Shown piece after piece: positions 19,479 to 50,406 of a stretch of DNA of 64,000 bases (its first letter is position 1; each line of letters starts with the position of its first letter). A model generated the notes under the pieces. The model did not search any database. It was given only the letters and a program-made list of their open reading frames with translations, and was not told the origin of the DNA. The stretch lies in the NCBI GenBank assembly GCA_027450205.1, contig DAIDJL010000002.1, positions 93,758 through 157,757 of the forward strand, given 5' to 3'. This stretch comes from Candidatus Parcubacteria bacterium (GTDB lineage Bacteria; Patescibacteriota; Minisyncoccia; UBA6257; 2-01-FULL-56-20). Made by a program: the position numbers and the translations under genes.

Positions 19479-21488
19479 ATGATCAAAAAGAACGAAAATA
19501 CAAATCAGGCGCCCGCGCAGAAAGAGCGCCCCAGAATAAAACCGCCGGAGATCCGGCCGCGTGCACCGATGCCGATACCCGGTAAACCCGGGATGACACC
19601 GGCCAGGCCCGCAGGCCCGAACCCGGCATATCCGCCGTCACCGCGCCCGGAGCAATCGCCCGCGCGCCCGCAGCGCGGCGGAGGAGGAGGCTCGCGCAGA
19701 GAAAAAGACGCCCGGCGCGAATTCCGGCACGGCCCCGGCGCTCCGCGCGCCGCGGGAACGCATCCGCAGAACTCAAAGATGGGGCCGAAGCCGCAGGTCG
19801 CGCGCGACCCGAACGAAAAATCAAATCCCGACGCGGTGCGCCTGGTGCCGCTGGGCGGCCTTGAAGAGATCGGCCGCAACTGCTCGTTCCTGGAGTACAA
19901 GAACGAGATCGTGATCATCGACATGGGACTCCAGTTCCCGGAGGAAGAGACGCCGGGTATCGATTACATCATCCCGAACATCGAATATCTTGAAAAGAAA
20001 AAGCAGAACATCGCGGGCATCATTTTGACGCACGGCCACTACGACCACATCGGCGCCCTGCCGCACGTGCTCGCCCGCCTCGGCAATCCGCCGATCTACG
20101 CGACCTCCATCACGAAAGCGATCATCGAGAAACGCTCGGACGATTTTCCGAATGCGCCGAAGATGAACGTAAAGATCGTCAAGAACGGCGACGAAATAAA
20201 GCTGTCGAACAATATGACGGCGCTCTTTTTCGGCGTGCCACACACGATCCCGGAGACGACCGGCGTGATGATGAAGACCCCGATCGGCAATATCGTGCAC
20301 TTTGCGGACTTCCGCCTGGATTACGACGACGAAGGCAACCCGCACGGGCTCGAGGAATTCGAGAAGCTCGGCAAGATGGGCGTGCACACGTTCATGGTGG
20401 ACTCCACCGCAGCGGAGCGCCCGGGGCACTCGGTCTCGGAAAAGACCGTTGAGAAGAATCTGGAGGAGATATTCAAGAGATCGGAAGGGCGCATCATTGT
20501 CGCCACCTTCGCTTCGCTCATCACGCGCATCGCGGAGATCATCAAGATCGCCGAGAAGATCGGCCGCAAGGTCGCGCTGAACGGCTATTCCATGAAGACG
20601 AACATCCAGATCGCGCAGGGGCTCGGCTTCGTCAAAGCAAAAGAAGGCACGATCATTTCCGTAGAAGAGGTCAATAAATACAAAGATGATAAGGTGATGA
20701 TCCTTTCCACCGGCGCACAGGGCGAATCCAACGCCGGCCTCATGAAGATCATCAACGGCGAGCACCGGCACATCAAGATCAAGCCGGGCGACACGTTCGT
20801 GCTCTCGTCGTCCGTCATTCCGGGCAACGAGCGCAGCGTGCAGACGGTCAAGGATAACCTCGCCCGCCAGGGCGCGATCGTCTACCACTCCGCGCTCGTG
20901 GACATCCACTCCTCCGGCCATGCGCCGAAGGATGACATCGCGCTCGTCATCAAGCTCCTCAAGCCGAAATTCCTCATGCCGGTGCACGGCTACTACTTCA
21001 TGCGCGCCGCGAACGGCCAGACCGCGCGCGAATCGGGCGTGCAGAAAGACAACGTGCGCCTGATGGACAACGGCCAGGTGGCAGAACTCACCAAAGACGC
21101 GTTCAAAGTGACGAAAGAAGAGGTCCCCGCTTACTATGTGATGGTGGACGGCCTCGGCGTCGGCGACGTGGAAGAGGTCGTCTTGCGCGACCGCCGCGCC
21201 CTCGCCGCAGAAGGCATGCTCGTGATCATCCTCACGGTCGACCGCGACAAGGGCCGCCTGCTCAAGAATCCCGACATCATCTCGCGCGGCTTCATCTATC
21301 TTAAAGATAACCAGGAGATCCTGGACGAGATCCGCAAGCGCATCCGCGGCCTCATGACGCGCATCCCGAACTTCAAAGAAGTGGAGCCCGATTACATAAA
21401 GACGCTGTTGCGCGATCAGGTCGGCCAATATCTGTATACGAAGACCAAGCGCCGGCCGATGATTTTGCCGGTGGTGATAGAGATATAA
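19479..21488 (+). CDS. rnj: Ribonuclease J with a Pro/Gly/Arg-rich N-terminal extension of about 115 aa
   Basis: THGHYDH metallo-beta-lactamase motif, beta-CASP and RNase J C-terminal regions; N-terminus is low-complexity PxP-rich. Confidence 0.9.
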   Translation: MIKKNENTNQAPAQKERPRIKPPEIRPRAPMPIPGKPGMTPARPAGPNPAYPPSPRPEQSPARPQRGGGGGSRREKDARREFRHGPGAPRAAGTHPQNSKMGPKPQVARDPNEKSNPDAVRLVPLGGLEEIGRNCSFLEYKNEIVIIDMGLQFPEEETPGIDYIIPNIEYLEKKKQNIAGIILTHGHYDHIGALPHVLARLGNPPIYATSITKAIIEKRSDDFPNAPKMNVKIVKNGDEIKLSNNMTALFFGVPHTIPETTGVMMKTPIGNIVHFADFRLDYDDEGNPHGLEEFEKLGKMGVHTFMVDSTAAERPGHSVSEKTVEKNLEEIFKRSEGRIIVATFASLITRIAEIIKIAEKIGRKVALNGYSMKTNIQIAQGLGFVKAKEGTIISVEEVNKYKDDKVMILSTGAQGESNAGLMKIINGEHRHIKIKPGDTFVLSSSVIPGNERSVQTVKDNLARQGAIVYHSALVDIHSSGHAPKDDIALVIKLLKPKFLMPVHGYYFMRAANGQTARESGVQKDNVRLMDNGQVAELTKDAFKVTKEEVPAYYVMVDGLGVGDVEEVVLRDRRALAAEGMLVIILTVDRDKGRLLKNPDIISRGFIYLKDNQEILDEIRKRIRGLMTRIPNFKEVEPDYIKTLLRDQVGQYLYTKTKRRPMILPVVIEI

Positions 21489-21504: not shown

Positions 21505-22245
21505 CTATTTCAAGAGCTCCAACAAATCATCTTTCCAGCCTTGATGGATCGCATCGGAAAGGAACCTATTCGATGGACACGTTGTCCTCGGGTTGATCTC
21601 GCGGTGACCGAAAATACGCTCGTGGGCGACCTGCGGATAACGTTCTTTGATGATGCCTGCTGCGGCAACGAGTTCTGTATCCGATGGTCGGGCGTTCTCA
21701 AGATCGCCGTCAAAACAGATTGCGATGCTTCGGCAGTTCATATCCCAGTCCCCGGCCTGCCAGCCAATTTCATCGTCGCTTAATAACCGCTCGACCACCC
21801 CATCGCTTCGCACAAACCAATGATACGGCCAGAACACTTGGCGACCATTACGAAAATGGCCCGAGTAAATTGGCCGTCCTTTTATTTTTTTATCAGCTTT
21901 ATATTTTGGCGCGGCGAATTCGGGAGCATAGAGGCGGATAAGTTCCATCCCGGAAAGCCTCTCCGTGGTCATACCGGGCGGATTGCTTGTGTGGTGGATG
22001 ATGACCGCATCGATCGGCTTGCGCTCGGCATCGGCATTCGGAGGATCGTTGTCGAGCGCAATATCACCAGCCGCAAGATGCTCGGCAAAAAAATCATAGA
22101 GTTCAATTTTAAGAAGTTCTTGCTCCGCATCGCTCTTCCCGCGCGATTGCCTGCGTAACTCTTCCAATTCCGGAAGGATCGCGATATACCAGTCGGAATT
22201 TTTTAAGAGCGGCGCCCAGCGTGATTTTATTTCGTCGATGACCAT
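21505..22245 (-). CDS. N-acetylmuramoyl-L-alanine amidase (Amidase_2 / PGRP-like)
   Basis: IIHHTS ... GHREI ... TCP zinc-ligand pattern, 246 aa. Confidence 0.75.
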   Translation of the reverse strand: MVIDEIKSRWAPLLKNSDWYIAILPELEELRRQSRGKSDAEQELLKIELYDFFAEHLAAGDIALDNDPPNADAERKPIDAVIIHHTSNPPGMTTERLSGMELIRLYAPEFAAPKYKADKKIKGRPIYSGHFRNGRQVFWPYHWFVRSDGVVERLLSDDEIGWQAGDWDMNCRSIAICFDGDLENARPSDTELVAAAGIIKERYPQVAHERIFGHREINPRTTCPSNRFLSDAIHQGWKDDLLELLK

Positions 22246-22286: not shown

Positions 22287-23267
<981 letters not shown>

Positions 23268-23673: not shown

Positions 23674-26600
23674 CTACACCTTTCGTATCGCCACCCACGC
23701 TTCCTCGCCATTGATCTTTGTCGCTTCCTCCGCGGTAAACTTATCGGAGCGGGCATAGAGCGTCTCGGTCGTACCGGTTGTCATTTTGAACGCTTCCTCA
23801 TTGGAAGCGATCGCATTTTTTACTTCCATCGGCAACTCCATCATCGCAATGATCTTATCCTTCGACTGAAGTCCGGCCTTCTGCCGCAACTCCTGGAACA
23901 TGCGCGCCACCTCGCGTACCAATCCTTCCTCGCGAAGCGCGGGCGTGATCTCGGTATCGAGCTCGACTTCGTTCGCCAGCTCCGGCACAAAAACGATCTC
24001 CTTCACATTGATCTCGCTCTTTAATATGTCGAGCAGGCCCGCGGCCCGCACCGTCGCTTCCGCGCCGCGCACGGAAAGCTTCGCGAGCGGCTGGCGCACT
24101 TTTATCTTCGCCGCCGCGCGAGCGGCGAGACCCAGGCTCGCGAGGCGCCGGATCTCCGCCATGCTCTCCAGCAATTCCTTGCGCTCTTTTTCGCCAAGCG
24201 AGAACTCAGCCTTCGGCCACGATTCCAGATGCACCGAACCGGCGCCATCCGCAGGCGCGAGCTCAAGATAGATCGCCTCGGCGAGAAATGGCATGAATGG
24301 TGCGATCGTTCTGCTTACCGCGAGCAGGGTCCCGCGCATCGTCTCGAAGAACGCGGCATCCTTGCGCTTGCGCGAGCGTCGCAGATACCACGTCGAAAGA
24401 TCGTCCACGTATTCCTGGATCGCGCGCGTGGCGCGAACCGTGTCGTATGCGTCGAGCGACACGGTCACCGTTTCCACGAGTTCGCCGGTGCGCGTGCGGA
24501 TCCAAAGATCGAGCAGGTTGCCTTCGGCGCCATCGCCGGCCTCCCCGGCGCCATTTGCCGCTCCGGCAAAATTTTCCACGATCTCATCGTTCCGATACGT
24601 CGCGTAATATTTATAGACGTTCAAAAGCAGCGAACCCACCTTCCGGTAGACGCCCTCGACGCCCTTCTCGGAAAAACTGAGATTATCCGCCTGCATCACG
24701 GTCGAATTCATCAAATAGAAACGCAGGGCGTCAGCGCCGAATTTATCGATGAGCAATTTTGGATCGGGGAAATTGTTCTTTGACTTGCTCATTTTAGAAC
24801 CATCCTCGGCGAGGATCGTTCCCGTCGTAACCACGTTCTCGAACGGCGCATGACCGAACAAAATGTACGACACGACATGCGAAAGATAGAACCACGCGCG
24901 CGTCTGTGCGATATACTCCGCCACGAATTGCGCGGGGAAATGGTGCTTGAACTCCTTCTCGTTTTCGAACGGATAATGGTATTCGGCGAACGGCATGGAG
25001 CCCGCCTCGATCCAGGAATCGAAGATCTCCGTCGTACGGCGCATGGCGCCGCCGCACTTCGTGCACGGGAACGTGACGTCATCGATGTACGGCCGGTGGA
25101 GATCCGCCTCGCCGCTGTCGTTGCGCGGCACTGCTTTGACATCCAGCTTGCGGATCTCGGCAAAACCGATGAAATCCGGACCGCGCTTTTCCTTTTCTTC
25201 CGTCGCACGCTTCTCGCTCCACGCCTCCGCGGAATGCGTCAGCATCCAGATCGGATATTCATGCGAAACAAGCAGGATATTTTTCCCTTCATATTTTTCC
25301 TCGCACTCCTTCAAAAATCCCCACATGCGCGCGCGGAGATCACGCAGGGACTCCCCGCCCTCCGGGGGATTCGAAAAACGTTCCGCGTACGTCGGGAATA
25401 ACTGCGCATACTTTTCATCTTGATAACCGGTGAGCGTCGGCCCGAGATGGATCTCCTCCAGGCGTGCATCAACCAACTCTTTCTCTCCGGTCAAGACCGT
25501 TGCGACGATATGCTCCGTGTCCTTCGTACGCGTGATATCCGAAGCGATGACGATATCGATCTTCTTGTGTTCTTTCGCCAGTTCCTTTTTGAACTTCTCC
25601 GCCGAAGCGAGCACCTGCTCCTTGCCGCGGGGGGTAAGATGCAGATATTTCCGCTGTCCGGAATCCATGATATCGAACATATTGCTCTCCGCTTCGCCGT
25701 GGCGCATCACCCAATAATTGTTACGCGAGCCACCCGCTTTTTCGGAAAGCTCTTCCATGCTCCCTACCACCTCCACGTGATCGCATCCTTCGCACTTCCA
25801 CACCGGCACCGGATTGCCCCAGTAGCGGTTGCGCGAGATGTTCCAGTCCGGTGCGGCCTCCACGCTCTTTTGATACCGGCCATTTTTGAGATGCTCCGGG
25901 AACCAGTTCATTTCTTTTTGGTTCGAATCAAGCAACCCTTGTTTTATCTTTTGAATGTTCACGAACCACGCCGGAATGGCATTGTAGAAAAGCGCGGTGC
26001 CGCACCGCCAGCAATGCGGATACGAGTGGGTATATTTTTCCTTTTTGAAAAGCAGCCCGCGCTTTTCCAGATCTTCCATCACCAGCTTGTCCGCCTTTTT
26101 AAAGTACTGCCCGCGCAAAAACTCCGGCGCCTTGTCGTTGAACAGGCCGCGGTCGTCGAGCATCGGCACCACCGGCAACCCCACCTTTACGCCCAGCGCA
26201 TAGTCATCCTCGCCGTACACGACGGCCGTATGTACGATACCCGTACCGTCCTCGGTCGTCACAAAATCTGCCGGATACACTTTGTACGATTTCTCCGACC
26301 GCATCGCGGACACCTCAAAGAGCGGCTCGTACTCAAGGCCGACGAGATTCGATCCTTTTATATCTTCGTGCACGATCTCGATCTCCTGATCGCCAAAAAC
26401 TTTTTTGACGAGATCACTTGCAACAATATAAAGCCCCTCGGCGTCTTTAAGCCGAAGTGCGGTATATGCCATTTTCTCCCCCACCGCCAATGCAACGTTT
26501 CCCGGCAGTGTCCACGGTGTCGTAGTCCAAGCGATCAGATATGCGGTGTCTTTTGTTGTATAGTCGCCAAATTTCTGGCCAGCTTTGAGATGAAACTTCA

Positions 26601-27252
26601 CATACACCGACTCCTCCGTCACGTCCTTATAGCTGTTGTCCATCGCCACCTCAAAATTGGAGAGCGGCGTTTCGCAGCGCGGGCAGTACAAAAGCACCTT
26701 GCGGCCCTCGTAGATCAGGTCCTTGTCGAACATCTGTTTAAATCCCCACCACACCGATTCCATGAAATCGGTGTCGAGCGTCTTATACGAGTTGTCGAAA
26801 TCAACCCAGCGCGCGATGCGGCGGACCATCTGTCGCCACTCGGAGACGTACATGAGCACCATGCTTCGGCATGTCTCATTGAACTTCTTGATGCCGATCT
26901 CTTCGATCTGTTTTTTGCCGGAGATGCCAAGCTTGCGCTCCACGACCTCCTCGATCGGCAACCCGTGACAGTCCCATCCCCACCGGCGGCGCACAAAGCG
27001 GCCGTTCATGGTCTGGTAACGCGGCACGACATCTTTTATGGTGGACGCCAAGAGGTGCCCGTAGTGCGGAAGTCCCGTGGCGAACGGCGGGCCGTCATAG
27101 AACGTGAACGGCTTTCCATCTGCCGTCTGCCCAAGGCTCTTTTCAAAAGTTTTATGCTCATCCCAAAACGCGAGCATTTTTTCTTCCATCTCTGGAAGCG
27201 TCACCTCGCCTTCGAGAAAATGCGGCATATGATGGGGTGTTTCCTTTGCCAT
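23674..27252 (-). CDS. ileS: Isoleucine--tRNA ligase (type 2) with an inserted histidine-phosphatase (PGM-like) domain
   Basis: FYDGPPFATGLPHYGH (HIGH region), WTTTPWTLP editing domain, GSKMSKSKNN (KMSKS). Residues about 507-716 contain RHGEAESN ... GGESLRDLRAR ... LLVSHEY. Confidence 0.9.
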   Translation of the reverse strand: MAKETPHHMPHFLEGEVTLPEMEEKMLAFWDEHKTFEKSLGQTADGKPFTFYDGPPFATGLPHYGHLLASTIKDVVPRYQTMNGRFVRRRWGWDCHGLPIEEVVERKLGISGKKQIEEIGIKKFNETCRSMVLMYVSEWRQMVRRIARWVDFDNSYKTLDTDFMESVWWGFKQMFDKDLIYEGRKVLLYCPRCETPLSNFEVAMDNSYKDVTEESVYVKFHLKAGQKFGDYTTKDTAYLIAWTTTPWTLPGNVALAVGEKMAYTALRLKDAEGLYIVASDLVKKVFGDQEIEIVHEDIKGSNLVGLEYEPLFEVSAMRSEKSYKVYPADFVTTEDGTGIVHTAVVYGEDDYALGVKVGLPVVPMLDDRGLFNDKAPEFLRGQYFKKADKLVMEDLEKRGLLFKKEKYTHSYPHCWRCGTALFYNAIPAWFVNIQKIKQGLLDSNQKEMNWFPEHLKNGRYQKSVEAAPDWNISRNRYWGNPVPVWKCEGCDHVEVVGSMEELSEKAGGSRNNYWVMRHGEAESNMFDIMDSGQRKYLHLTPRGKEQVLASAEKFKKELAKEHKKIDIVIASDITRTKDTEHIVATVLTGEKELVDARLEEIHLGPTLTGYQDEKYAQLFPTYAERFSNPPEGGESLRDLRARMWGFLKECEEKYEGKNILLVSHEYPIWMLTHSAEAWSEKRATEEKEKRGPDFIGFAEIRKLDVKAVPRNDSGEADLHRPYIDDVTFPCTKCGGAMRRTTEIFDSWIEAGSMPFAEYHYPFENEKEFKHHFPAQFVAEYIAQTRAWFYLSHVVSYILFGHAPFENVVTTGTILAEDGSKMSKSKNNFPDPKLLIDKFGADALRFYLMNSTVMQADNLSFSEKGVEGVYRKVGSLLLNVYKYYATYRNDEIVENFAGAANGAGEAGDGAEGNLLDLWIRTRTGELVETVTVSLDAYDTVRATRAIQEYVDDLSTWYLRRSRKRKDAAFFETMRGTLLAVSRTIAPFMPFLAEAIYLELAPADGAGSVHLESWPKAEFSLGEKERKELLESMAEIRRLASLGLAARAAAKIKVRQPLAKLSVRGAEATVRAAGLLDILKSEINVKEIVFVPELANEVELDTEITPALREEGLVREVARMFQELRQKAGLQSKDKIIAMMELPMEVKNAIASNEEAFKMTTGTTETLYARSDKFTAEEATKINGEEAWVAIRKV

Positions 27253-27352
27253 CCCTATAAAATAGCAGGTTTTTGATGATTTATAAAGAAAACGGGCTCC
27301 CTGTTTGGAACAGAGAGCCCTCGATCGTTCATCGATCTATCGGACGGAACAT

Positions 27353-27652
27353 CTATCTCTTTCTGCGTGCGGGAAGCAGAAGCAGCTCGGGAAGAAGGTA
27401 ATGCCGTCCGGGGTTATCGCTCGAGGCGATCGCAATGTGCAATCCGGGACGTTTCCTGCTGACCCTCAGCCCTGGCACGGTATGCCAGCGGGTGCTCAAC
27501 TCCAATACGGACGGTTCTTTCAGCGGAAGAACGAATGCCCCTTTGGGGAAAATATTTTTCCCCACCCGGACAAATTTCGTTCCCACGCTGATCTGCGCCT
27601 CCTGCCTGAGGACAAGCTTCGTCGGCGCCGTTGCTTCGGTTACTATGGCCAT
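27353..27652 (-). CDS. Hypothetical small protein
   Basis: 99 aa from MAIVTEATAPTK; GGAG SD 6 nt upstream; no family recognised. Confidence 0.4.
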   Translation of the reverse strand: MAIVTEATAPTKLVLRQEAQISVGTKFVRVGKNIFPKGAFVLPLKEPSVLELSTRWHTVPGLRVSRKRPGLHIAIASSDNPGRHYLLPELLLLPARRKR

Positions 27653-27707
27653 TTCTCGCTCCGCGGCGGGGAAAACCCACCGAACTGCGAAGAGCATACC
27701 TTAAATG

Positions 27708-29420
27708 CTAGATTTTTTCAAGCGTCTTTATACCAAGCAATCCAAGTCCTTTTTGCAAAACCCGCGCCGCAGTGGCAATGAGCAACAGCCGTGCGTCGCG
27801 GCGCGCGATATCTTCGTCCTTCAATATCGGCGTCGTCTCGTAAAATTTATTCGCAGCTACGGCAAGCTTGTAGAGATACACGGCAAGCGTACTCGTGGAA
27901 TACAGCTCGCCCGCGCGCTCCACGACGTCGGGGAACTCGAACAGTTTCCGCATCAGCGCAAGCTCGGCGGCCCGCTCGAGCAACGACGCGTTTATCGCGC
28001 CCGGACGAAGCCGCAGAGACGAGGCCTTTGACTTGCGCAAAATGCTTTTCAGCCGCGCATAGGTGTATTGCAAATATGGCCCGCTGTCGCCGGAAAAATC
28101 CAGCATCTTCTCCCAGTTGAAAACGATATCCGTGGTGCGATTCTCTTTAAGATCGTTATATTTGAGCGCACCCATCGCCACTACGAAGGCGATCTCACGT
28201 TTTTTGTCCGGCGGGAGATCCGGGTTTTTCGCCTCTATGACCTCGCGCGCCTTGACGACCGCATCATCAAGAAGGCCCTCGAGCATCTCCGCGGTCCCTT
28301 CGCGCGTAGAAAGCTTCTTCCCGCCTTCGCCGAGTACCAAGCCGTATTTTATGTGCTTCAGCTCAGCGACATCGCCCAGCCCGAGCTTTTTCGCCACCGC
28401 AAAAAGCTGTTCGAATGCAAGCGATTGCTCGTTGCCCACCACATATAATATCTTCGCCGGTCTATATTTTTTGAGACGGTAGCGGAGATTCGCGATATCG
28501 CGGGTAAGATACAGGCTCGCGCCGTCGGACTTTCGGATGAGCGCCGGCGGCAATCCGACGTCGTTAAGGTTCACCACGATGGCGCCCTCGCTCTGCTCGG
28601 CGATATTTCTGTCCGTAAGCTCCTTTACCGTAGCCTTCATCTCGCGCTCGAACGACGCCTCCCCCATCCATTCATCAAAATCCACATCGAGAATACGGTA
28701 TATCTTCATGAACTCCTTGAGAGATTCTTTCTTGAACCACTCCCATAATTTCCGGTTCTCACGATCGCCGTCCTCGAGTTTTTTAAACTCCTCCCGTCCG
28801 CGCTTTTCGAGCTCGGGATTCGTCTTCATCTCTGCGTGGAATCGTACATATAATTTTTGCAATTCCTCTATGGGATCCTTCTCCACCAGCTTTTTGTCGC
28901 CCCACATCTTGTATGCGGCGATGAGCTTGCCGAATTGCGTACCCCAGTCGCCGAGGTAGTTCCACCGCACCACGCGGTAGCCGGAAAGCTCGAGGATATT
29001 CGCAAGCGCGGCGCCGATGATCGTCGTGCGCATGTGTCCGACATGCATCTTTTTTGCGATGTTCGGCTGGGAATATTCCACGATCACCGTGCGCCCGCCA
29101 CCGACATTCCCCGCGCCATAGTTTTTATCCGCCGCGACGCGCTTGAACTCGTCCTGCGCCGCCGCATCGCTCACCCAAAAATTGACGAATCCGGGCGCCG
29201 CCGCCTCCACTTTTTGGAAAAACCCGGCGGGCGCTGCGGCGGCTATTTTTGCGGCATATTCCTTTGCAAGTTCGAGCGGCGGAACGCCCTTTATCTTCGC
29301 CTGGCGCAAAGCGATATTGGTCGAATAATGCCCAAAAAGCTCCTCGTCGGGAATGGAGATGTCCACCGGGGCATCGGCGTTCAGTATTTTCCTCACTATT
29401 TCTGAGATTTTTTTGGTCAT
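27708..29420 (-). CDS. argS: Arginine--tRNA ligase
   Basis: Start at MTKKISEIV; class I HVGH motif (AKKMHVGHMRT); 571 aa. The ORF-track upstream extension is low-complexity and runs into the intergenic region. Confidence 0.9.
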   Translation of the reverse strand: MTKKISEIVRKILNADAPVDISIPDEELFGHYSTNIALRQAKIKGVPPLELAKEYAAKIAAAAPAGFFQKVEAAAPGFVNFWVSDAAAQDEFKRVAADKNYGAGNVGGGRTVIVEYSQPNIAKKMHVGHMRTTIIGAALANILELSGYRVVRWNYLGDWGTQFGKLIAAYKMWGDKKLVEKDPIEELQKLYVRFHAEMKTNPELEKRGREEFKKLEDGDRENRKLWEWFKKESLKEFMKIYRILDVDFDEWMGEASFEREMKATVKELTDRNIAEQSEGAIVVNLNDVGLPPALIRKSDGASLYLTRDIANLRYRLKKYRPAKILYVVGNEQSLAFEQLFAVAKKLGLGDVAELKHIKYGLVLGEGGKKLSTREGTAEMLEGLLDDAVVKAREVIEAKNPDLPPDKKREIAFVVAMGALKYNDLKENRTTDIVFNWEKMLDFSGDSGPYLQYTYARLKSILRKSKASSLRLRPGAINASLLERAAELALMRKLFEFPDVVERAGELYSTSTLAVYLYKLAVAANKFYETTPILKDEDIARRDARLLLIATAARVLQKGLGLLGIKTLEKI

Positions 29421-29454
29421 TGACAAAATAAATATATGAATGCCATAATGCAGG

Positions 29455-29628
29455 CGCAGTGGGCTCCGACCGGAAGCGGCGCGGGTAGCCCCTGCAAAAG
29501 CCTCTGTTCTGAGGCATGTGAGGCGGCATACTCTTGATGCCCACCGGGTCGAGCGGACCTCCCGCAACGCAGCCATGCCAGTGGGGGCAGCGGCTGGCGA
29601 ACGGAGATCTTGCCTTGGGCCCACTGCG
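29455..29628 (+). ncRNA. Unassigned GC-rich structured element closed by a 10-bp helix; strand uncertain, with a T-run on the plus strand
   Basis: cgcagtgggc at 29455-29464 pairs gcccactgcg at 29619-29628; a second tier tccg/cgga lies inside; followed by gtttcctttcgc...ctgctttttt. The flanking intergenic DNA is AT-rich. Confidence 0.35.
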
Positions 29629-29775: not shown

Positions 29776-30225
29776 ATGGACACATCCACGAACACCATCG
29801 CGGAAAATCGCCGGGCGCGCTTTGACTACGACGTCTCGCAAAAGTACGAAGCAGGCATCGAGCTTAAGGGGTATGAAGTAAAAAGCGCGAAAGGCGGCCG
29901 GTTTCAGGTTGCCGGCGCGCACGTGCTCATCCGCGGCGGAGAGGCATGGCTCGTGAACTCGCACATCCCGCCGTACCAGGCGGGCAACACTCCGTCGGAC
30001 CACGAAGAGGACCGTGCGCGCCGGCTGTTATTGTCAAAGCTGGAAATCAAAGAGTTGCAGGGCGCGCTCGTTGATAAAGCGCAACACCTCATCCCGCTCC
30101 GCGCGTACTTAAAGCACGGCCTGATCAAGATCGAGCTCGGCCTCGGCCGGTCGCGCAAAAAATCGGACAAACGCGAAGCGATCAAAAAACGCGCGCACCA
30201 TCGCGAGATGCGGGGCGGAGAATAA
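29776..30225 (+). CDS. smpB: SsrA-binding protein
   Basis: 149 aa; RARFDY ... GIELKGYEVKS ... typical SmpB. Confidence 0.9.
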   Translation: MDTSTNTIAENRRARFDYDVSQKYEAGIELKGYEVKSAKGGRFQVAGAHVLIRGGEAWLVNSHIPPYQAGNTPSDHEEDRARRLLLSKLEIKELQGALVDKAQHLIPLRAYLKHGLIKIELGLGRSRKKSDKREAIKKRAHHREMRGGE

Positions 30226-47454: not shown

Positions 47455-47716
47455 GTTGATTCGTTAAGTTCTCGACTGGCGAACAAAAAGCTCCCAGCCA
47501 GCGATGCCTTTCGACACCCATATCCCTTTCGAGATATGACCGTTCATGGCGCTCTGACTAGGAGCTTTTTACCATGAACGGTATTTTGCGCCATGCACCA
47601 TCTTTGGCTGATAAACAGCTAGATAACAGTGTTTAGGCGACTGTATTAAATTGTTCCTTCAATATAGCACCAACTGAGCCTCTTGGTAAATGCGCACGAT
47701 TGTTTATAATATAGCC

Positions 47717-48462: not shown

Positions 48463-50042
48463 GCGAACTTCACGCCTTAATTTACTGCCGCGTCTCATCT
48501 GAGCGACAAAAGAACGAGGGCCACGGCCTCGACAGCCAAGAGCAACGTTGCCGTCTTTATTGCGGCCAAAAGCAATACAAGGTTGAGCGTGTCTTTAGGG
48601 ATAGCTTTACGGGGGCCGGAGATTTTATGGAACGCCCAGCGATGGGAGAATTGCTCGCCTACCTCGACAAGCATCCGCACAGGGATGATTACGTTGTCGT
48701 TTTCGATGACCTCAAGCGATTTGCCCGCGACACCGTTTTTCATTTAAAGCTCCGGCGTGAATTTAAGGCACGGGGCGTTAAAGTGGAGTGCCTCAATTAT
48801 AAATTCGACGAATCCGAAGAGGGTGAATTTATCGAAACCGTTTTAGCCGCACAGGGCGAGCTTGAACGGAAACAGAATCGCCGCCAAGTTATCCAGAAGC
48901 AAAAGGCGCGCCTTGAAGCTGGCTATTGGCCTTTCTGTCCGCCGCCTGGCTATCGTCAGCCCAAGACGGTGGCTCATGGAAAACTTCTTACGCCATACGA
49001 GCCGGAAGCCACGATCGTGAGAACAGCCCTTGAGGGATTTGCGACAGATCGGTTTGAGACGCAAGCGGACATGGCCCGCTACTTGGGAGAACAAAACTTC
49101 ATCGGCAAAAGCAGGGTTCCCTTCCAGCTAGCAAATCGTCTCTTGGCCCGCGTATGGATATATGCCGGATTTATCCAATATGAGCCGTGGGAGGTAGTAC
49201 GACGGCAGGGCCACCATGAGCCAATCATCGACCTAGCGGCTTATCATAAGATTTTACGAAAGCTCGAAGGTCGCAGTCCGGTAAGGACGAGGGTAGATAT
49301 GCGCGAGGACTTTCCTTTACGCCACACACAGATCGCATGTGGCAATTGTGGTCGGCCCTTTACTGCTTCATATACGACCAAGAAAAAGGGCTATAGGCGG
49401 CCTTATTATCGTTGCGCCAATACTGCATGCCCTGAACACACAAAGAGCATCCCTGTCGAGCTTATAGAAACACAATTTAAAACCATGTTGCAGGAGATCC
49501 GCCCGAAGCCCCTCATCCTCAAAATCAGCGAAGCGATGCTCTACGAGAAATGGGAGCGGCGTGTGTCCGAGCGGGCTAATGCCGAAAAGAAAGAGGTTGG
49601 CGAAATTGCAGGGATTCAGGCAGAAATACACGACCTCTCAAAGCTTGCACGGAAAGCGACCAGTGAACGCGTCCGGCGGGAGTATGAGAAGCAGATCGAG
49701 GAACTAGCGGCGAAGGAGGAAAAATTGGCGGAGAAAAATGATCCTACAAAGAAGCCAAAAATTGAGTTTAGAACCGCTCTACAAATGGTATTCGATTACC
49801 TAAAAGACCCATATTCTAAATGGGTTGAGGGCGATTTGAGTGAGAAAAATCTGGTGCTGAACCTCGTTTTTGAGGGTCTCGTTTTCTATGACCGAGGATT
49901 TGGATTTAGAACCGCTCTTTTGTGCCTTCCTTTAAGGGTTTTTGAGCATTTTACTACCTCTAAATCACAGGGTGTGGAAGCGGGCGGAATCGAACCGCCG
50001 TGTAAAGATAATGCCGATGGGCCGTCTACGAGCGTAGTTTAG
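48459..50042 (+). CDS. Large serine recombinase (resolvase/invertase N-terminal domain + recombinase domain + zinc ribbon)
   Basis: YCRVSSERQ catalytic serine motif, CGNCG ... C ... C zinc ribbon, coiled coil; 527 aa. Confidence 0.85.
   Translation: MSELHALIYCRVSSERQKNEGHGLDSQEQRCRLYCGQKQYKVERVFRDSFTGAGDFMERPAMGELLAYLDKHPHRDDYVVVFDDLKRFARDTVFHLKLRREFKARGVKVECLNYKFDESEEGEFIETVLAAQGELERKQNRRQVIQKQKARLEAGYWPFCPPPGYRQPKTVAHGKLLTPYEPEATIVRTALEGFATDRFETQADMARYLGEQNFIGKSRVPFQLANRLLARVWIYAGFIQYEPWEVVRRQGHHEPIIDLAAYHKILRKLEGRSPVRTRVDMREDFPLRHTQIACGNCGRPFTASYTTKKKGYRRPYYRCANTACPEHTKSIPVELIETQFKTMLQEIRPKPLILKISEAMLYEKWERRVSERANAEKKEVGEIAGIQAEIHDLSKLARKATSERVRREYEKQIEELAAKEEKLAEKNDPTKKPKIEFRTALQMVFDYLKDPYSKWVEGDLSEKNLVLNLVFEGLVFYDRGFGFRTALLCLPLRVFEHFTTSKSQGVEAGGIEPPCKDNADGPSTSVV
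49976..50003 (-). other. tRNA 3'-end-like fragment (T arm plus acceptor strand) embedded in the recombinase 3' end
   Basis: Minus strand reads ggcgg-ttcgatt-ccgcc-cgcttcc-a; no matching 5' half was found. Confidence 0.4.
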
Positions 50043-50406
50043 CGATGCTAAGCGAAGTGATCATATTTTCACGCCAAGCGTATGATCGTCAACCTGACGC
50101 TAGTCCCCTTATATAAGACCGGTATCGATCCAAGGAACCCGGATCGGCCGATCCCTCCGGTTATGCGTTAAGCAAAAGCGAAGGCTGGAACTCGATTAGA
50201 GTTGGCAGTGTAGATTGTGCAGCGATGACGACGCTGCCAACGGCTCGCAAACCCATGGATTATCTTTATCGAAGCCAATGCGCTCCCGAATATCGTGCCT
50301 TCGATAAGGCTGCCGCTATTATACCACGAATAATGCTAGAATAAAAGTATGCAAATATGCTGCACCAAAGGTCGAAGAGTTTAAAGCTAATGATTTTTTA
50401 ATCTTT

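What the first reader, a model, noticed from the sequence alone, without database searches (positions are those of the whole stretch)
25105..25734. Isoleucyl-tRNA synthetase carrying an inserted full histidine-phosphatase (PGM/RHG) domain
The 1192-aa IleRS has all expected IleRS motifs: HIGH-region PHYGH, WTTTPWTLP editing signature, CEGC zinc knuckle, KMSKS. Between the end of the CP1 editing domain (...VWKCEGCDHVEVVGSMEELSEKA) and the resumption of the catalytic core (ADLHRPYIDDVTFPCTKCGG) there are about 210 extra residues (~aa 507-716). That segment reads as a complete branch-1 histidine phosphatase: RHGEAESN (catalytic RHG motif), GGESLRDLRARMWGFL (the GES/R region) and LLVSHEYPIWML (second catalytic His). 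I know of no described aaRS with an embedded phosphatase. It could hydrolyse a phosphorylated nucleotide such as an Ap4A/ppGpp-type alarmone, or remodel mis-charged substrates, or it may be a selfish domain insertion.
Basis: partly seen in the sequence, partly recalled or inferred. Interest (0 to 1): 0.8.

Follow-up and report, generated by a model that had tools for sequence, protein, structure and literature searches.

The report
Phosphatase nested inside isoleucyl-tRNA synthetase
The isoleucyl-tRNA synthetase of this candidate-phyla-radiation (Patescibacteria) bacterium really does carry a complete, apparently active histidine phosphatase inside its catalytic body; at least 142 related species share the design, related lineages encode the same phosphatase as a small separate gene between the arginyl- and isoleucyl-tRNA synthetase genes, no paper I could search describes it, and its substrate is unknown.

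Summary
ORF 23674-27252 (-) is a 1192-aa type-2 IleRS. Residues 507-716 (window 25105-25734) are a full branch-1 histidine phosphatase: Pfam His_Phos_1 87.8 bits against a 21.7 cutoff, AF2 pLDDT 91.6, and Foldseek TM 0.75 to GpgP/PspA/PhoE. The segment replaces about 8 residues of T. thermophilus IleRS. It lies in the CP3 subdomain, between the two CxxC halves of the zinc knuckle, not at the end of CP1. R517, H518, R575, E634 and H664 are invariant in 116/116 homologs. The architecture occurs in at least 142 species-representative genomes, and every named one is Patescibacteria.

New here: related lineages encode the same phosphatase subfamily as a ~190-aa gene between argS and an insert-less ileS (6/6 contexts). 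Insert-bearing genomes have argS directly next to ileS (47/63). Rare variants fuse it to ArgRS or TsaC, or put other His_Phos domains at other IleRS sites.

It is therefore a nested fusion of an operon partner, not a selfish element or an artefact. The substrate is unknown. It reaches no curated NCBIfam cutoff for dPGM, CobC, PspA or SixA. No description was found in the literature. I rate it a new variant of a known kind, of considerable interest.

The parts
23674..27252 (-). ileS: 1192-aa type-2 (eukaryote/archaea-like) isoleucyl-tRNA synthetase with a nested phosphatase
   Evidence: ORF. TIGR00392 ileS scores 817.7 bits against a 621.4 cutoff. Best PDB sequence matches are yeast, T. thermophilus and P. 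megaterium IleRS2 at about 700 bits, against about 300 bits for type-1 S. aureus IleRS. The full-length AF2 model best matches 8c8v IleRS2, TMt 0.70.
25735..27252 (-). IleRS N-terminal part, aa 1-506: Rossmann N-half (HIGH = PHYGH, window 27055-27069), CP core, CP1 editing domain (WTTTPWTLP, window 26503-26529), CP2 and the first half of CP3
   Evidence: Pfam tRNA-synt_1 covers aa 25-510. Motif positions. Domain names by alignment to C. albicans and T. thermophilus IleRS.
25783..25794 (-). First CxxC (C487-E-G-C490) of the CP3 zinc knuckle, just upstream of the insert
   Evidence: C487 is in 116/116 and C490 in 110/116 homologs. T. thermophilus IleRS CP3 has a zinc motif (PMC7191050).
25105..25734 (-). 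Nested branch-1 histidine phosphatase domain, aa 507-716 (Pfam envelope aa 514-681 = window 25210-25713)
   Evidence: PF00300 at 87.8/92.3 bits. AF2 pLDDT 91.6. Foldseek to GpgP 6s2q/4qih, PspA 4ij6, PhoE 1h2e and CobC 6e4b. It corresponds to a gap of 199-208 aa in insert-less relatives.
25681..25704 (-). RHGEAESN motif: R517, H518 (predicted phospho-accepting nucleophile, codon 25699-25701), G519 and N524
   Evidence: R517 and H518 are in 116/116 and G519 in 112/116. Both are also invariant in the standalone relatives.
25528..25530 (-). R575, second phosphate-binding arginine (S571-x3-R575-x3-T579 motif)
   Evidence: 116/116. Invariant in A1 and A2.
25351..25353 (-). E634 (GGES motif), predicted general acid/base
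   Evidence: 116/116. Invariant in A1 and A2.
25261..25263 (-). H664 (VSH motif), second catalytic histidine
   Evidence: 116/116. It is conserved in 34 of the 35 sequences of A2 (33/34 standalone proteins plus this window's insert).
25054..25065 (-). Second CxxC (C730-T-K-C733) of the CP3 zinc knuckle, just downstream of the insert
   Evidence: C730 and C733 are in 116/116. Position.
23674..25104 (-). IleRS C-terminal part, aa 717-1192, with stop codon: second half of CP3 and of the Rossmann fold, KMSKS (window 24781-24795), anticodon-binding domain and C-terminal DUF5915 domain
   Evidence: Pfam tRNA-synt_1g, Anticodon_1 and DUF5915. The alignment to 1ILE resumes at query residue 717.
27253..27707 (.). 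argS-ileS spacer, the position where related lineages carry the standalone phosphatase gene; it is empty here
   Evidence: No His_Phos remnant in a six-frame HMM search and no Rfam hit. The standalone gene occupies this position in L001-L006.
27708..29420 (-). argS (arginyl-tRNA synthetase), immediately upstream of ileS on the same strand
   Evidence: Pfam Arg_tRNA_synt_N, tRNA-synt_1d and DALR_1. The HMM hit covers 27711-29420. The same adjacency is seen in 47/63 related loci.
22287..23267 (+). trpS (tRNA-synt_1b), convergent with ileS; part of the conserved smpB-argS-ileS-trpS block
   Evidence: Synteny.
29788..30219 (+). smpB, divergent from argS; part of the same conserved block
   Evidence: HMM hit.

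Best explanation
Residues 507-716 are a genuine, complete and very probably catalytically competent branch-1 histidine phosphatase. The domain is nested in the CP3 subdomain of the IleRS that occupies the conserved smpB-argS-ileS-trpS position in a Patescibacteria (CPR) bacterium, so this is presumably the housekeeping enzyme. The two CxxC halves of the CP3 zinc knuckle flank the insert on either side, consistent with a self-contained domain carried on a loop (geometry inferred, not measured). It is the fused form of a ~190-aa phosphatase that related lineages encode as a separate, tightly packed gene between argS and an insert-less ileS (argS-hpp-ileS). In the insert-bearing lineages that gene is absent from the argS-ileS spacer and the domain sits inside IleRS. 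Chemistry, inferred from the family: H518 attacks a phosphoryl group and forms a phospho-histidine; R517, R575 and H664 hold the phosphate; E634 protonates the leaving group; water then releases phosphate. The substrate is not shown. My committed reading is that the phosphatase is functionally coupled to the ATP-consuming, tRNA-directed enzymes it travels with, and acts on a small phosphorylated nucleotide-type product, by-product or contaminant of adenylate chemistry. I do not think it acts on Ap4A or ppGpp. Confidence by step: real nested His_Phos domain, about 0.98; catalytically active, about 0.8; fused form of the argS-ileS operon phosphatase, about 0.85; functional coupling to aminoacylation, about 0.55; small-molecule (nucleotide-type) substrate, about 0.35. 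The overall figure of 0.5 is for the statement up to and including functional coupling.
For: Domain identity: Pfam 87.8 bits, AF2 pLDDT 91.6, Foldseek E=2e-13 and TM 0.75 to GpgP/PspA/PhoE/CobC.
Insertion point.
Activity: R517, H518, R575, E634 and H664 are invariant in 116/116 homologs of 53-84% identity and in the standalone relatives. The insert is conserved like a peripheral functional domain: 56% mean identity, against 61% for the anticodon-binding domain and 47% for the C-terminal domain.
Spread: all 120 best homologs carry PF00300. 142 GTDB species representatives matched two narrow peptide patterns, and all 80 loci returned are Patescibacteria MAGs. 77/79 copies are embedded between the two IleRS halves.
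Origin: the closest non-embedded relatives (175-243 bits to subfamily profiles, against 159 bits or less for generic His_Phos) are ~190-aa proteins. In 6/6 contexts examined they lie between argS and an insert-less ileS of 943-966 aa, with 0-5 nt between argS and the phosphatase gene in the four loci where both gene ends are resolved (L001, L003, L004, L005). In insert-bearing genomes argS is directly adjacent to ileS in 47/63 loci, and none has a standalone copy between them; the same holds for this window.
Coupling: the same subfamily is fused to the C-terminus of ArgRS in P0235, in the same smpB-argS-recO block, and to TsaC/Sua5 in P0197. Two IleRSs carry additional His_Phos domains of other lineages at three other sites (P0174, P0233). 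IleRS, ArgRS and TsaC all convert ATP to an adenylate plus PPi (established biochemistry).
Small-molecule bias: the nearest structures are small-molecule phosphatases, and the domain is mildly acidic, with median pI 6.3 and net charge -2.8.
Against: Nothing here identifies a substrate. No NCBIfam equivalog cutoff is reached. The tools return no coordinates, so I could not measure whether the phosphatase pocket faces the synthetic site, the editing site or the tRNA. pTM of the full-length model is only 0.67. The ArgRS, TsaC and multi-insert proteins are single-cluster metagenomic observations. The ArgRS fusion could result from a one-base error, because the two genes abut. A metagenome scan found no second example of the P0233 site-C insertion. 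Conserved gene order in tiny, streamlined genomes can persist by descent without functional linkage. NJ trees of the domain and of the IleRS core are star-like and do not show how many insertion events occurred. To my knowledge, branch-1 histidine phosphatases have not been shown to hydrolyse PPi.
Confidence: 0.5

Rival explanations
1. Proximity fusion without functional coupling. The phosphatase is an ordinary housekeeping metabolite phosphatase that happened to lie in the argS-ileS gene cluster. In a streamlined genome it became fixed inside a tolerant surface loop of IleRS simply because that guarantees co-expression and does no harm.
For: The nearest folds are generic small-molecule phosphatases. 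No subfamily assignment is possible. The smpB-argS-ileS-trpS/recO block is a conserved housekeeping cluster. CP3 is structurally variable among IleRSs (PMC7191050). The standalone form shows that tethering is not required.
Against: A nested insertion cannot arise by simple read-through of neighbouring genes. His_Phos domains of other lineages were independently inserted at three other IleRS sites, and the subfamily is also fused to ArgRS and TsaC. That is hard to explain without selection for the pairing. The architecture is kept with invariant catalytic residues in at least 142 species.
Confidence: 0.3
2. tRNA end-healing. The phosphatase removes a 3'-terminal (2'/3') phosphate, or the remnant of a cyclic phosphate or pyrophosphate, from damaged or toxin-modified tRNA, so that the class I synthetase can charge it.
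For: All three fusion partners belong to tRNA charging or tRNA modification pathways. From background knowledge, toxSAS enzymes pyrophosphorylate the tRNA CCA end and tRNase toxins leave phosphorylated ends, so such substrates exist in nature.
Against: The domain is mildly acidic, with net charge -2.8. No branch-1 histidine phosphatase is known to me to act on RNA ends. In the yeast IleRS-tRNA complex the acceptor stem makes only a few contacts, all with the catalytic domain, and CP3 is not reported as a tRNA contact (PMC11685878). TsaC does not act on the tRNA 3' end. PADLOC gives no defence-system hit.
Confidence: 0.12
3. Protein phosphatase. The domain acts like SixA, PGAM5 or Sts, removing inhibitory phosphorylation from the synthetase itself or from a partner, for example phosphorylation by HipA-type kinases.
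For: Branch 1 includes protein phosphatases. The N-terminal RHGEA region has weak similarity to SixA, 22.8-26.2 bits. From background knowledge, HipA-family toxins phosphorylate aaRSs.
Against: The SixA cutoff of 74.5 bits is not reached. The fold and the GGES acid motif resemble the PhoE/CobC/GpgP small-molecule enzymes. No kinase lies in the conserved neighbourhood.
Confidence: 0.05
4. Catalytically dead structural module. The fold is kept only as a scaffold, for example for tRNA or partner binding.
For: Some nested domains in aaRSs are non-catalytic (background knowledge).
Against: All five catalytic residues are invariant in 116/116 sequences, while the rest of the domain drifts to as little as 30% identity.
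Confidence: 0.04
5. Selfish or mobile insertion (intein-like or transposon-borne), or an assembly or frameshift artefact.
For: The segment is a discrete 630-bp in-frame insertion relative to other IleRSs.
Against: There are no intein, HNH or transposase domains, no flanking direct repeats and no compositional break. The same in-frame architecture occurs in at least 142 species from many independent assemblies at 40-82% identity. Only one copy exists in the 64-kb window.
Confidence: 0.02

Closest known systems
Type-2 (eukaryote/archaea-like) IleRS, e.g. T. thermophilus IleRS (1ILE), P. megaterium IleRS2 (8C8U/8C8V), yeast and C. albicans IleRS (8WND, 6LDK)
   Same: Same enzyme family and domain order: HIGH (HYGH), CP core, CP1 editing domain, CP2, CP3, KMSKS, anticodon-binding domain and DUF5915-type C-terminus. 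About 700-bit sequence matches and TMt 0.70. As in T. thermophilus, CP3 carries a four-cysteine zinc motif.
   Different: None of the solved enzymes has anything but a short loop (5-8 residues) where this protein has a 210-residue phosphatase.
Small branch-1 histidine phosphatases: GpgP Rv2419c (4PZ9/4QIH/6S2Q), PspA (4IJ5/6), PhoE/YhfR (1H2E/1EBB), CobC (6E4B/6NRU)
   Same: Same fold and size (TM about 0.75, E about 1e-12) and the same R-H-R-E-H catalytic constellation.
   Different: Only 17-24% identity. No NCBIfam equivalog cutoff is reached. Those enzymes are free-standing, whereas this one is nested in an aaRS or encoded between argS and ileS.
NCBIfam NF040702 'ileS_w_GNAT' (IleRS containing an N-acetyltransferase domain)
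   Same: It is a precedent, at the level of database curation, for an IleRS that carries an extra enzymatic domain.
   Different: The extra domain there is a GNAT, not a phosphatase. This protein scores 293.7 bits against a cutoff of 1999, so it is not a member. I know that family only from its model name and did not examine its insertion site.
Rv2228c-type bifunctional RNase H / CobC-like acid phosphatase (NCBIfam NF005567)
   Same: It is the best NCBIfam hit for the insert, at 63.5 bits. It is also a branch-1 histidine phosphatase covalently joined to a nucleic-acid enzyme, and as far as I know the reason for that pairing is still unclear.
   Different: That is an end-to-end fusion, not a nested one, and the partner is RNase H. 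The cutoff of 326 bits is not reached.
CP1 editing domain of class Ia synthetases, and the histidine-phosphatase domain of yeast TFIIIC subunit tau55 (the latter from memory)
   Same: CP1 shows that class Ia catalytic cores tolerate a nested second hydrolytic domain with its own active site. The tau55 domain is another His_Phos domain attached to tRNA-related machinery, and its substrate is still uncertain.
   Different: CP1 is universal, hydrolyses aminoacyl esters and is unrelated in fold. The tau55 domain is eukaryotic and is not part of an aaRS.

Membership tests
Histidine phosphatase superfamily, branch 1 (Pfam PF00300) | Profile match above the curated gathering score | tested here: met
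   87.8 bits in the whole protein and 92.3 bits for the excised segment, against a 21.7 cutoff.
Histidine phosphatase superfamily, branch 1 (Pfam PF00300) | N-terminal RHG motif with the nucleophilic histidine, plus a second Arg, a second His and an acidic proton donor | tested here: met
   R517-H518-G519, R575, H664 and E634 are all present; R517, H518, R575, E634 and H664 are invariant in 116/116 homologs and G519 is in 112/116.
Histidine phosphatase superfamily, branch 1 (Pfam PF00300) | Alpha/beta phosphoglycerate-mutase-like fold | tested here: met
   AF2 pLDDT 91.6 and pTM 0.90. Foldseek E=2e-13, TMt 0.75 to 6s2q/4qih, with 305 PDB chains at E<=1e-3 and all 50 listed best matches being histidine-phosphatase/PGM-fold proteins.
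Histidine phosphatase superfamily, branch 1 (Pfam PF00300) | Phosphatase or mutase activity through a phospho-histidine intermediate | not testable with these tools
   This requires enzymology.
Cofactor-dependent phosphoglycerate mutase (dPGM; NCBIfam NF038349, NF002901, NF002339) | Equivalog profile score above the curated cutoff | tested here: not met
   57.7-60.6 bits against 225; 38.5-43.9 against 261; 24.6-29.6 against 316. E634 is followed by S-L rather than the R-x-Y that I recall from dPGMs.
Alpha-ribazole phosphatase CobC / phosphoserine phosphatase PspA / phosphohistidine phosphatase SixA | Equivalog profile score above the curated cutoff | tested here: not met
   CobC TIGR03162 41.3-46.1 bits against 162.9; PspA 36.2-40.8 against 350; SixA 22.8-26.2 against 74.5.
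Isoleucyl-tRNA synthetase (TIGR00392 ileS) | Equivalog profile above the cutoff, with the class I HIGH and KMSKS motifs and the CP1 editing signature | tested here: met
   817.7 bits against 621.4. PHYGH, KMSKS and WTTTPWTLP are present.
Isoleucyl-tRNA synthetase (TIGR00392 ileS) | It is the sole, housekeeping IleRS of the genome | not tested
   It is the only IleRS in the 64-kb window and it occupies the conserved smpB-argS-ileS-trpS position. Whole genomes could not be read.
Type-2 IleRS (eukaryote-like, MupA/MupB-related) | Closer to eukaryotic, T. thermophilus and IleRS2 sequences than to type-1 bacterial IleRS; no bacterial C-terminal zinc-binding domain | tested here: met
   About 700 bits to 8wnd/1ile/8c8u against about 303 bits to 1ffy/8c9e. 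The C-terminus is DUF5915. MupA and MupB models score 695-709 bits, below their 'exception' cutoff of 1900, so it is not a mupirocin-resistance allele.
NCBIfam NF040702 ileS_w_GNAT | Profile score above the curated cutoff | tested here: not met
   293.7 bits against 1999.
Intein or mobile-element insertion | Splicing or homing-endonuclease domains, terminal repeats, a compositional break, multiple copies | tested here: not met
   No such Pfam domains, no flanking repeats, GC content like the flanks, and a single copy in the window.
Known anti-phage defence proteins (PADLOC) | Match to any PADLOC model | tested here: not met
   No hits for the insert or for the standalone P0127.

The most novel reading that the evidence does not exclude
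Aminoacylation in a large part of the Patescibacteria needs, or benefits from, an extra dephosphorylation step that is not part of textbook translation. A dedicated phosphatase is built into IleRS, or co-translated with ArgRS and IleRS. It would either clear a phosphorylated by-product or inhibitor of adenylate chemistry at the enzyme, or restore a phosphorylated tRNA 3' end before charging. In other words, it would be a third catalytic site on an aaRS, besides synthesis and editing.
Probability: 0.3. Interest if true: 0.85.

Novelty: new variant of a known kind. Interest (0 to 1): 0.66.

Why it matters
Aminoacyl-tRNA synthetases are among the best-studied enzymes. Their known nested catalytic modules are editing domains. 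A conserved, apparently active phosphatase inside the catalytic body of the IleRS of a major uncultured bacterial radiation is unexpected. So is the parallel existence of the same phosphatase as an argS-hpp-ileS operon gene and as rare ArgRS and TsaC fusions. Together these form a classic 'Rosetta stone' pointer to an unrecognised activity linked to tRNA charging.

The question is directly testable, because the protein can be expressed and screened against phosphorylated nucleotides, PPi, phospho-tRNA ends and phosphoproteins. Even if the coupling proves to be only co-expression, three useful results remain: CP3 is shown to be a natural permissive site for nesting a whole enzyme in a class Ia synthetase; the insert is a clade marker for Patescibacteria lineages; and the current database names ('class I tRNA ligase family protein') hide a second enzymatic function.

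Tried and rejected
(1) A word-indexed search with the insert alone returned only 10 short hits. The exhaustive representative search was needed to see the family.
I therefore used a tight insert alignment for genome contigs and exact look-ups for the standalone contexts.
(3) A metagenome scan with the P0233 site-C junction found only ordinary IleRS without that insertion, so the multi-insert variants remain singletons.
(4) NJ trees of the phosphatase domains and of the IleRS core were too star-like to count insertion events. I make no claim about single versus multiple origin at site A.
(5) The afdb50 fold library was unavailable.
(6) No coordinates are returned for the models, so the geometry of the phosphatase pocket relative to the synthetic site, editing site and tRNA could not be measured. 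The full-length model gave only pLDDT 80 and pTM 0.67.
(7) I looked for a decayed standalone copy in the argS-ileS spacer and for a second copy anywhere in the window, and found none.
(8) I looked for flanking repeats, compositional anomalies and RNA elements, and found none relevant.
(9) PADLOC gave no hits.
(10) Literature searches on the idea that a missing pyrophosphatase might explain a PPi-clearing role gave nothing usable.
(11) I rejected dPGM, CobC, PspA and SixA assignments because all curated cutoffs were missed.
(12) I rejected the Ap4A/ppGpp idea for lack of any evidence; those are not typical branch-1 substrates.


Full report

The minus-strand ORF 23674-27252 encodes 1192 aa. Pfam finds tRNA-synt_1 split into two parts. 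Between them lies His_Phos_1 (PF00300) at residues 514-681, with E=1e-24 and 87.8 bits against a gathering score of 21.7. The excised 210 residues alone score 92.3 bits.

NCBIfam places the whole protein in TIGR00392 ileS (817.7 bits against a 621.4 cutoff). The best solved relatives are the type-2 or eukaryote-like enzymes: yeast 8wnd, T. thermophilus 1ile and P. megaterium IleRS2 8c8u, all near 700 bits. Type-1 S. aureus IleRS scores about 300 bits.

GC content across the insert equals that of the flanks. No direct repeats flank the segment, and there are no intein or mobile-element domains.

2. WHERE THE INSERT SITS.

HMMER alignments to solved IleRSs stop at query residue 506/507 and resume at 716/717. 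They skip only about 8 residues of T. thermophilus IleRS (480->489) and about 5 of yeast IleRS (493->498).

By the domain boundaries of C. albicans IleRS (CP3 = residues 473-534), this point lies in the CP3 subdomain of the connective peptide. In T. thermophilus IleRS, CP3 carries a zinc-binding motif (PMC7191050). In this protein the insert lies between CEGC (487-490) and CTKC (730-733). C487, C730 and C733 are invariant and C490 is present in 110/116 homologs.

The phosphatase is carried on a loop of the CP3 zinc knuckle. From the short conserved linkers I infer that its two ends lie close together, but I could not measure this.

3. IT IS A REAL, FOLDED, PROBABLY ACTIVE PHOSPHATASE.

An AF2 model of residues 485-726 has pLDDT 91.6 and pTM 0.90. 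Foldseek matches it to compact branch-1 histidine phosphatases at E of about 1e-12 to 1e-13 and TM of about 0.75. These include glucosyl-3-phosphoglycerate phosphatase Rv2419c, PspA, PhoE/YhfR, CobC and TIGAR. In the full-length model (pLDDT 80.0, pTM 0.67), the insert is among the most confidently predicted regions, with 10-residue blocks at 83-95. The body superposes best on type-2 IleRS (8c8v, TMt 0.70).

The complete catalytic set is invariant across 116 full-length homologs of 53-84% identity: R517, H518, R575, E634 and H664, together with S571 and R642. Meanwhile the domain as a whole diverges to a mean of 56% identity (minimum 30%). That is similar to the anticodon-binding domain (61%) and better conserved than the C-terminal domain (47%). 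This is the signature of purifying selection on catalysis.

No curated subfamily cutoff is reached: dPGM 58-61 bits against 225, CobC 41-46 against 163, PspA 36-41 against 350, SixA 23-26 against 74.5. The substrate class therefore cannot be read from sequence.

4. THE ARCHITECTURE IS WIDESPREAD IN PATESCIBACTERIA.

All 120 best homologs in a 5.8-billion-protein collection carry PF00300. Their source names are Minisyncoccia, Paceibacterota, and Liptonbacteria, Jorgensenbacteria, Doudnabacteria and Saccharibacteria.

An exhaustive phmmer search of 1.84 billion cluster representatives with the insert gave 282 representatives at E<=1e-10. Many are 1100-1270-aa IleRSs with the domain at about residues 480-700.

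A scan of one genome per GTDB species with two narrow peptide patterns confirmed 142 genomes. The 80 loci returned are all Patescibacteria MAGs, including Yanofskybacteria, Magasanikbacteria, Liptonbacteria and Jorgensenbacteria. A more distant example is from Kerfeldbacteria. In 77 of 79 loci the domain is embedded between the two IleRS halves.

5. WHERE THE DOMAIN COMES FROM.

The same searches recovered proteins of about 190 aa that match the insert profile end to end, with scores as high as embedded copies (175-195 bits). A profile built from these proteins separates a tight subfamily (176-243 bits) from generic small histidine phosphatases (159 bits or less). One member is named Candidatus Staskawiczbacteria.

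I examined six genomic contexts. In all six the standalone gene lies between argS and an ileS that lacks the insert (943-966 aa). In the four loci where both gene ends are resolved (L001, L003, L004, L005), 0-5 nt separate argS from the phosphatase gene. Alignment shows a clean 199-208-residue gap in those IleRSs exactly at the insert.

The reverse pattern holds in insert-bearing genomes. Their gene order is smpB(-) argS(+) ileS[N-insert-C](+) trpS(-). argS is directly adjacent to ileS in 47 of 63 loci with enough upstream sequence (median gap 179 nt), and none has a standalone subfamily gene between the two.

The window has the same order: trpS 22287-23267, ileS, argS 27708-29420, smpB about 29788-30219. 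Its 455-nt argS-ileS spacer holds no phosphatase remnant, and there is no second copy in the 64 kb.

The simplest reading is that a phosphatase encoded in an argS-hpp-ileS operon became nested in IleRS in some lineages. This is an inference. NJ trees of the domain and of the IleRS core are star-like and interleave the two states, so I cannot say how often this happened.

6. OTHER FUSIONS OF THE SAME THEME (rarer and weaker evidence).

- P0235 is an ArgRS with the standalone-type phosphatase at its C-terminus. It lies in the same smpB-argS-recO block, and ileS is absent from that locus.
- P0197 is a TsaC/Sua5-phosphatase fusion.
- P0233 (1419 aa) has the CP3 copy plus a second His_Phos domain between the stem-contact region and the anticodon-binding domain.
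- P0174 has copies after the second CxxC, inside the second Rossmann half, and at the same site as the second copy in P0233.
- In a crude tree, the extra copies in P0233 and P0174 fall among generic His_Phos proteins, which suggests independent acquisitions.

All of these are single-cluster metagenomic observations. The ArgRS fusion could be a one-base error, because the two genes abut. A metagenome scan found no second site-C example, and the third copy in P0174 runs out of frame.

7. HOW IT MOST LIKELY WORKS.

Shown: a complete histidine-phosphatase active site, tethered to CP3 of IleRS or co-encoded with ArgRS and IleRS.

Inferred from the family mechanism: phosphoryl transfer to H518, with R517, R575 and H664 binding the phosphate and E634 acting as general acid/base, followed by hydrolysis.

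Not shown: the substrate. The enzymes it associates with (IleRS, ArgRS, TsaC) all use ATP to make an adenylate plus PPi in the service of tRNA. The nearest folds are small-molecule phosphatases, and the domain is mildly acidic. In the yeast IleRS-tRNA complex the acceptor stem makes only a few contacts, all with the catalytic domain, and CP3 is not reported as a tRNA contact (PMC11685878).

I therefore favour a small, nucleotide-type phosphorylated compound linked to adenylate chemistry (about 0.35) over a phosphorylated tRNA 3' end (about 0.12) or a phosphoprotein (about 0.05). A substantial rival (about 0.3) is that there is no functional coupling at all, only co-expression of a housekeeping phosphatase. 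Dead-module, selfish-element and artefact readings are each very unlikely.

8. COMPARISON WITH WHAT IS KNOWN.

The protein is a member of IleRS (type 2) and of histidine phosphatase branch 1. It is not a member of dPGM, CobC, PspA, SixA or the MupA/MupB resistance alleles, nor of the NCBIfam 'ileS_w_GNAT' family. That last family is nevertheless a database-level precedent for an IleRS that carries an extra enzymatic domain. The Rv2228c RNase H/acid phosphatase is a conceptual parallel.

Seven full-text searches combining IleRS or aaRS terms with histidine phosphatase, PGM, His_Phos_1, CPR, Patescibacteria or CP3 found no description of this architecture. The sequences are public but are named only 'isoleucyl-tRNA synthetase' or 'class I tRNA ligase family protein'. 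The library does not cover most subscription journals, so absence of a description is not proven.

9. VERDICT.

Two corrections apply: the site is CP3, and the source is an operon-partner gene rather than a selfish insertion.

I rate this a new variant of a known kind, namely a class Ia synthetase with a nested second enzyme. It appears undescribed, it is conserved across a large uncultured radiation, and it is directly testable. Interest 0.66.

Noticed in passing
L001-L006 (e.g. L003:3410-8553, L005:3374-8411): In lineages whose IleRS lacks the insert, a ~190-aa histidine phosphatase of the same subfamily is encoded between argS and ileS. In the loci where both gene ends are resolved, 0-5 nt separate argS from the phosphatase gene, so the three genes look like an argS-hpp-ileS operon (6/6 contexts).
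   Followed up: yes
L007:5001-7070 (P0235): ArgRS with the standalone-type phosphatase fused to its C-terminus, in the same smpB-argS-recO block, with ileS absent from the locus. It is a single cluster and could be a one-base frameshift artefact.
   Followed up: partly
L009:977-2140 (P0197): TsaC/Sua5 (threonylcarbamoyl-AMP synthase) fused to a phosphatase of the same subfamily. The neighbours are a HAD hydrolase and a PD-(D/E)XK nuclease-like protein. It is a single 3.7-kb contig.
   Followed up: partly
L008:1932-6191 (P0233) and L010:1711-4974 (P0174): IleRSs carrying two and three His_Phos domains at different sites: in CP3, after the second CxxC, inside the second Rossmann half, and before the anticodon-binding domain. 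The extra copies group with generic His_Phos proteins. The third copy in P0174 continues out of frame after the stop codon. No further site-C examples were found in JGI metagenomes.
   Followed up: partly
window 47503-47639 (-): LOOT RNA motif (Rfam RF03000), 85.1 bits against a gathering score of 46.4.
   Followed up: no
window 49972-50287 (-) and 29788-30219 (+): A tmRNA gene (97.8 bits) and an smpB gene lie about 20 kb apart. The ARAGORN tag peptide (GGIGRSGFLGSIPVLYKGTSVRLTIIRLA) is unusually long and may be mis-called.
   Followed up: no
window 27253-27707: The argS-ileS spacer is 455 nt, against a median of 179 nt in 47 related loci. It contains no His_Phos remnant and no Rfam family, and its content is unexplained.
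   Followed up: partly
window 27708-29624 (-): The mechanical argS ORF starts at a GTG at 29624, but ArgRS homology begins at the ATG at 29420 (MTKKISEIV...). The first 68 codons are probably not translated.
   Followed up: partly
(NCBIfam NF040702): NCBI curates a family 'isoleucine--tRNA ligase, N-acetyltransferase domain-containing', so IleRS has acquired other enzymatic domains elsewhere. I did not examine where that domain is inserted.
   Followed up: no
L013:10453-11028: One insert-bearing genome also has an unrelated, generic histidine phosphatase ORF just after trpS (64 bits to the subfamily HMM, against 180-300 bits for members).
   Followed up: partly
L020, L023, L024, L026: argS is inverted relative to ileS but still adjacent in these four loci, so the gene pair stays together through a rearrangement.
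   Followed up: no
window 19479-21488 (+), 21505-22245 (-): An RNase J gene and an Amidase_2 (N-acetylmuramoyl-L-alanine amidase) gene flank the aaRS cluster.
   Followed up: no
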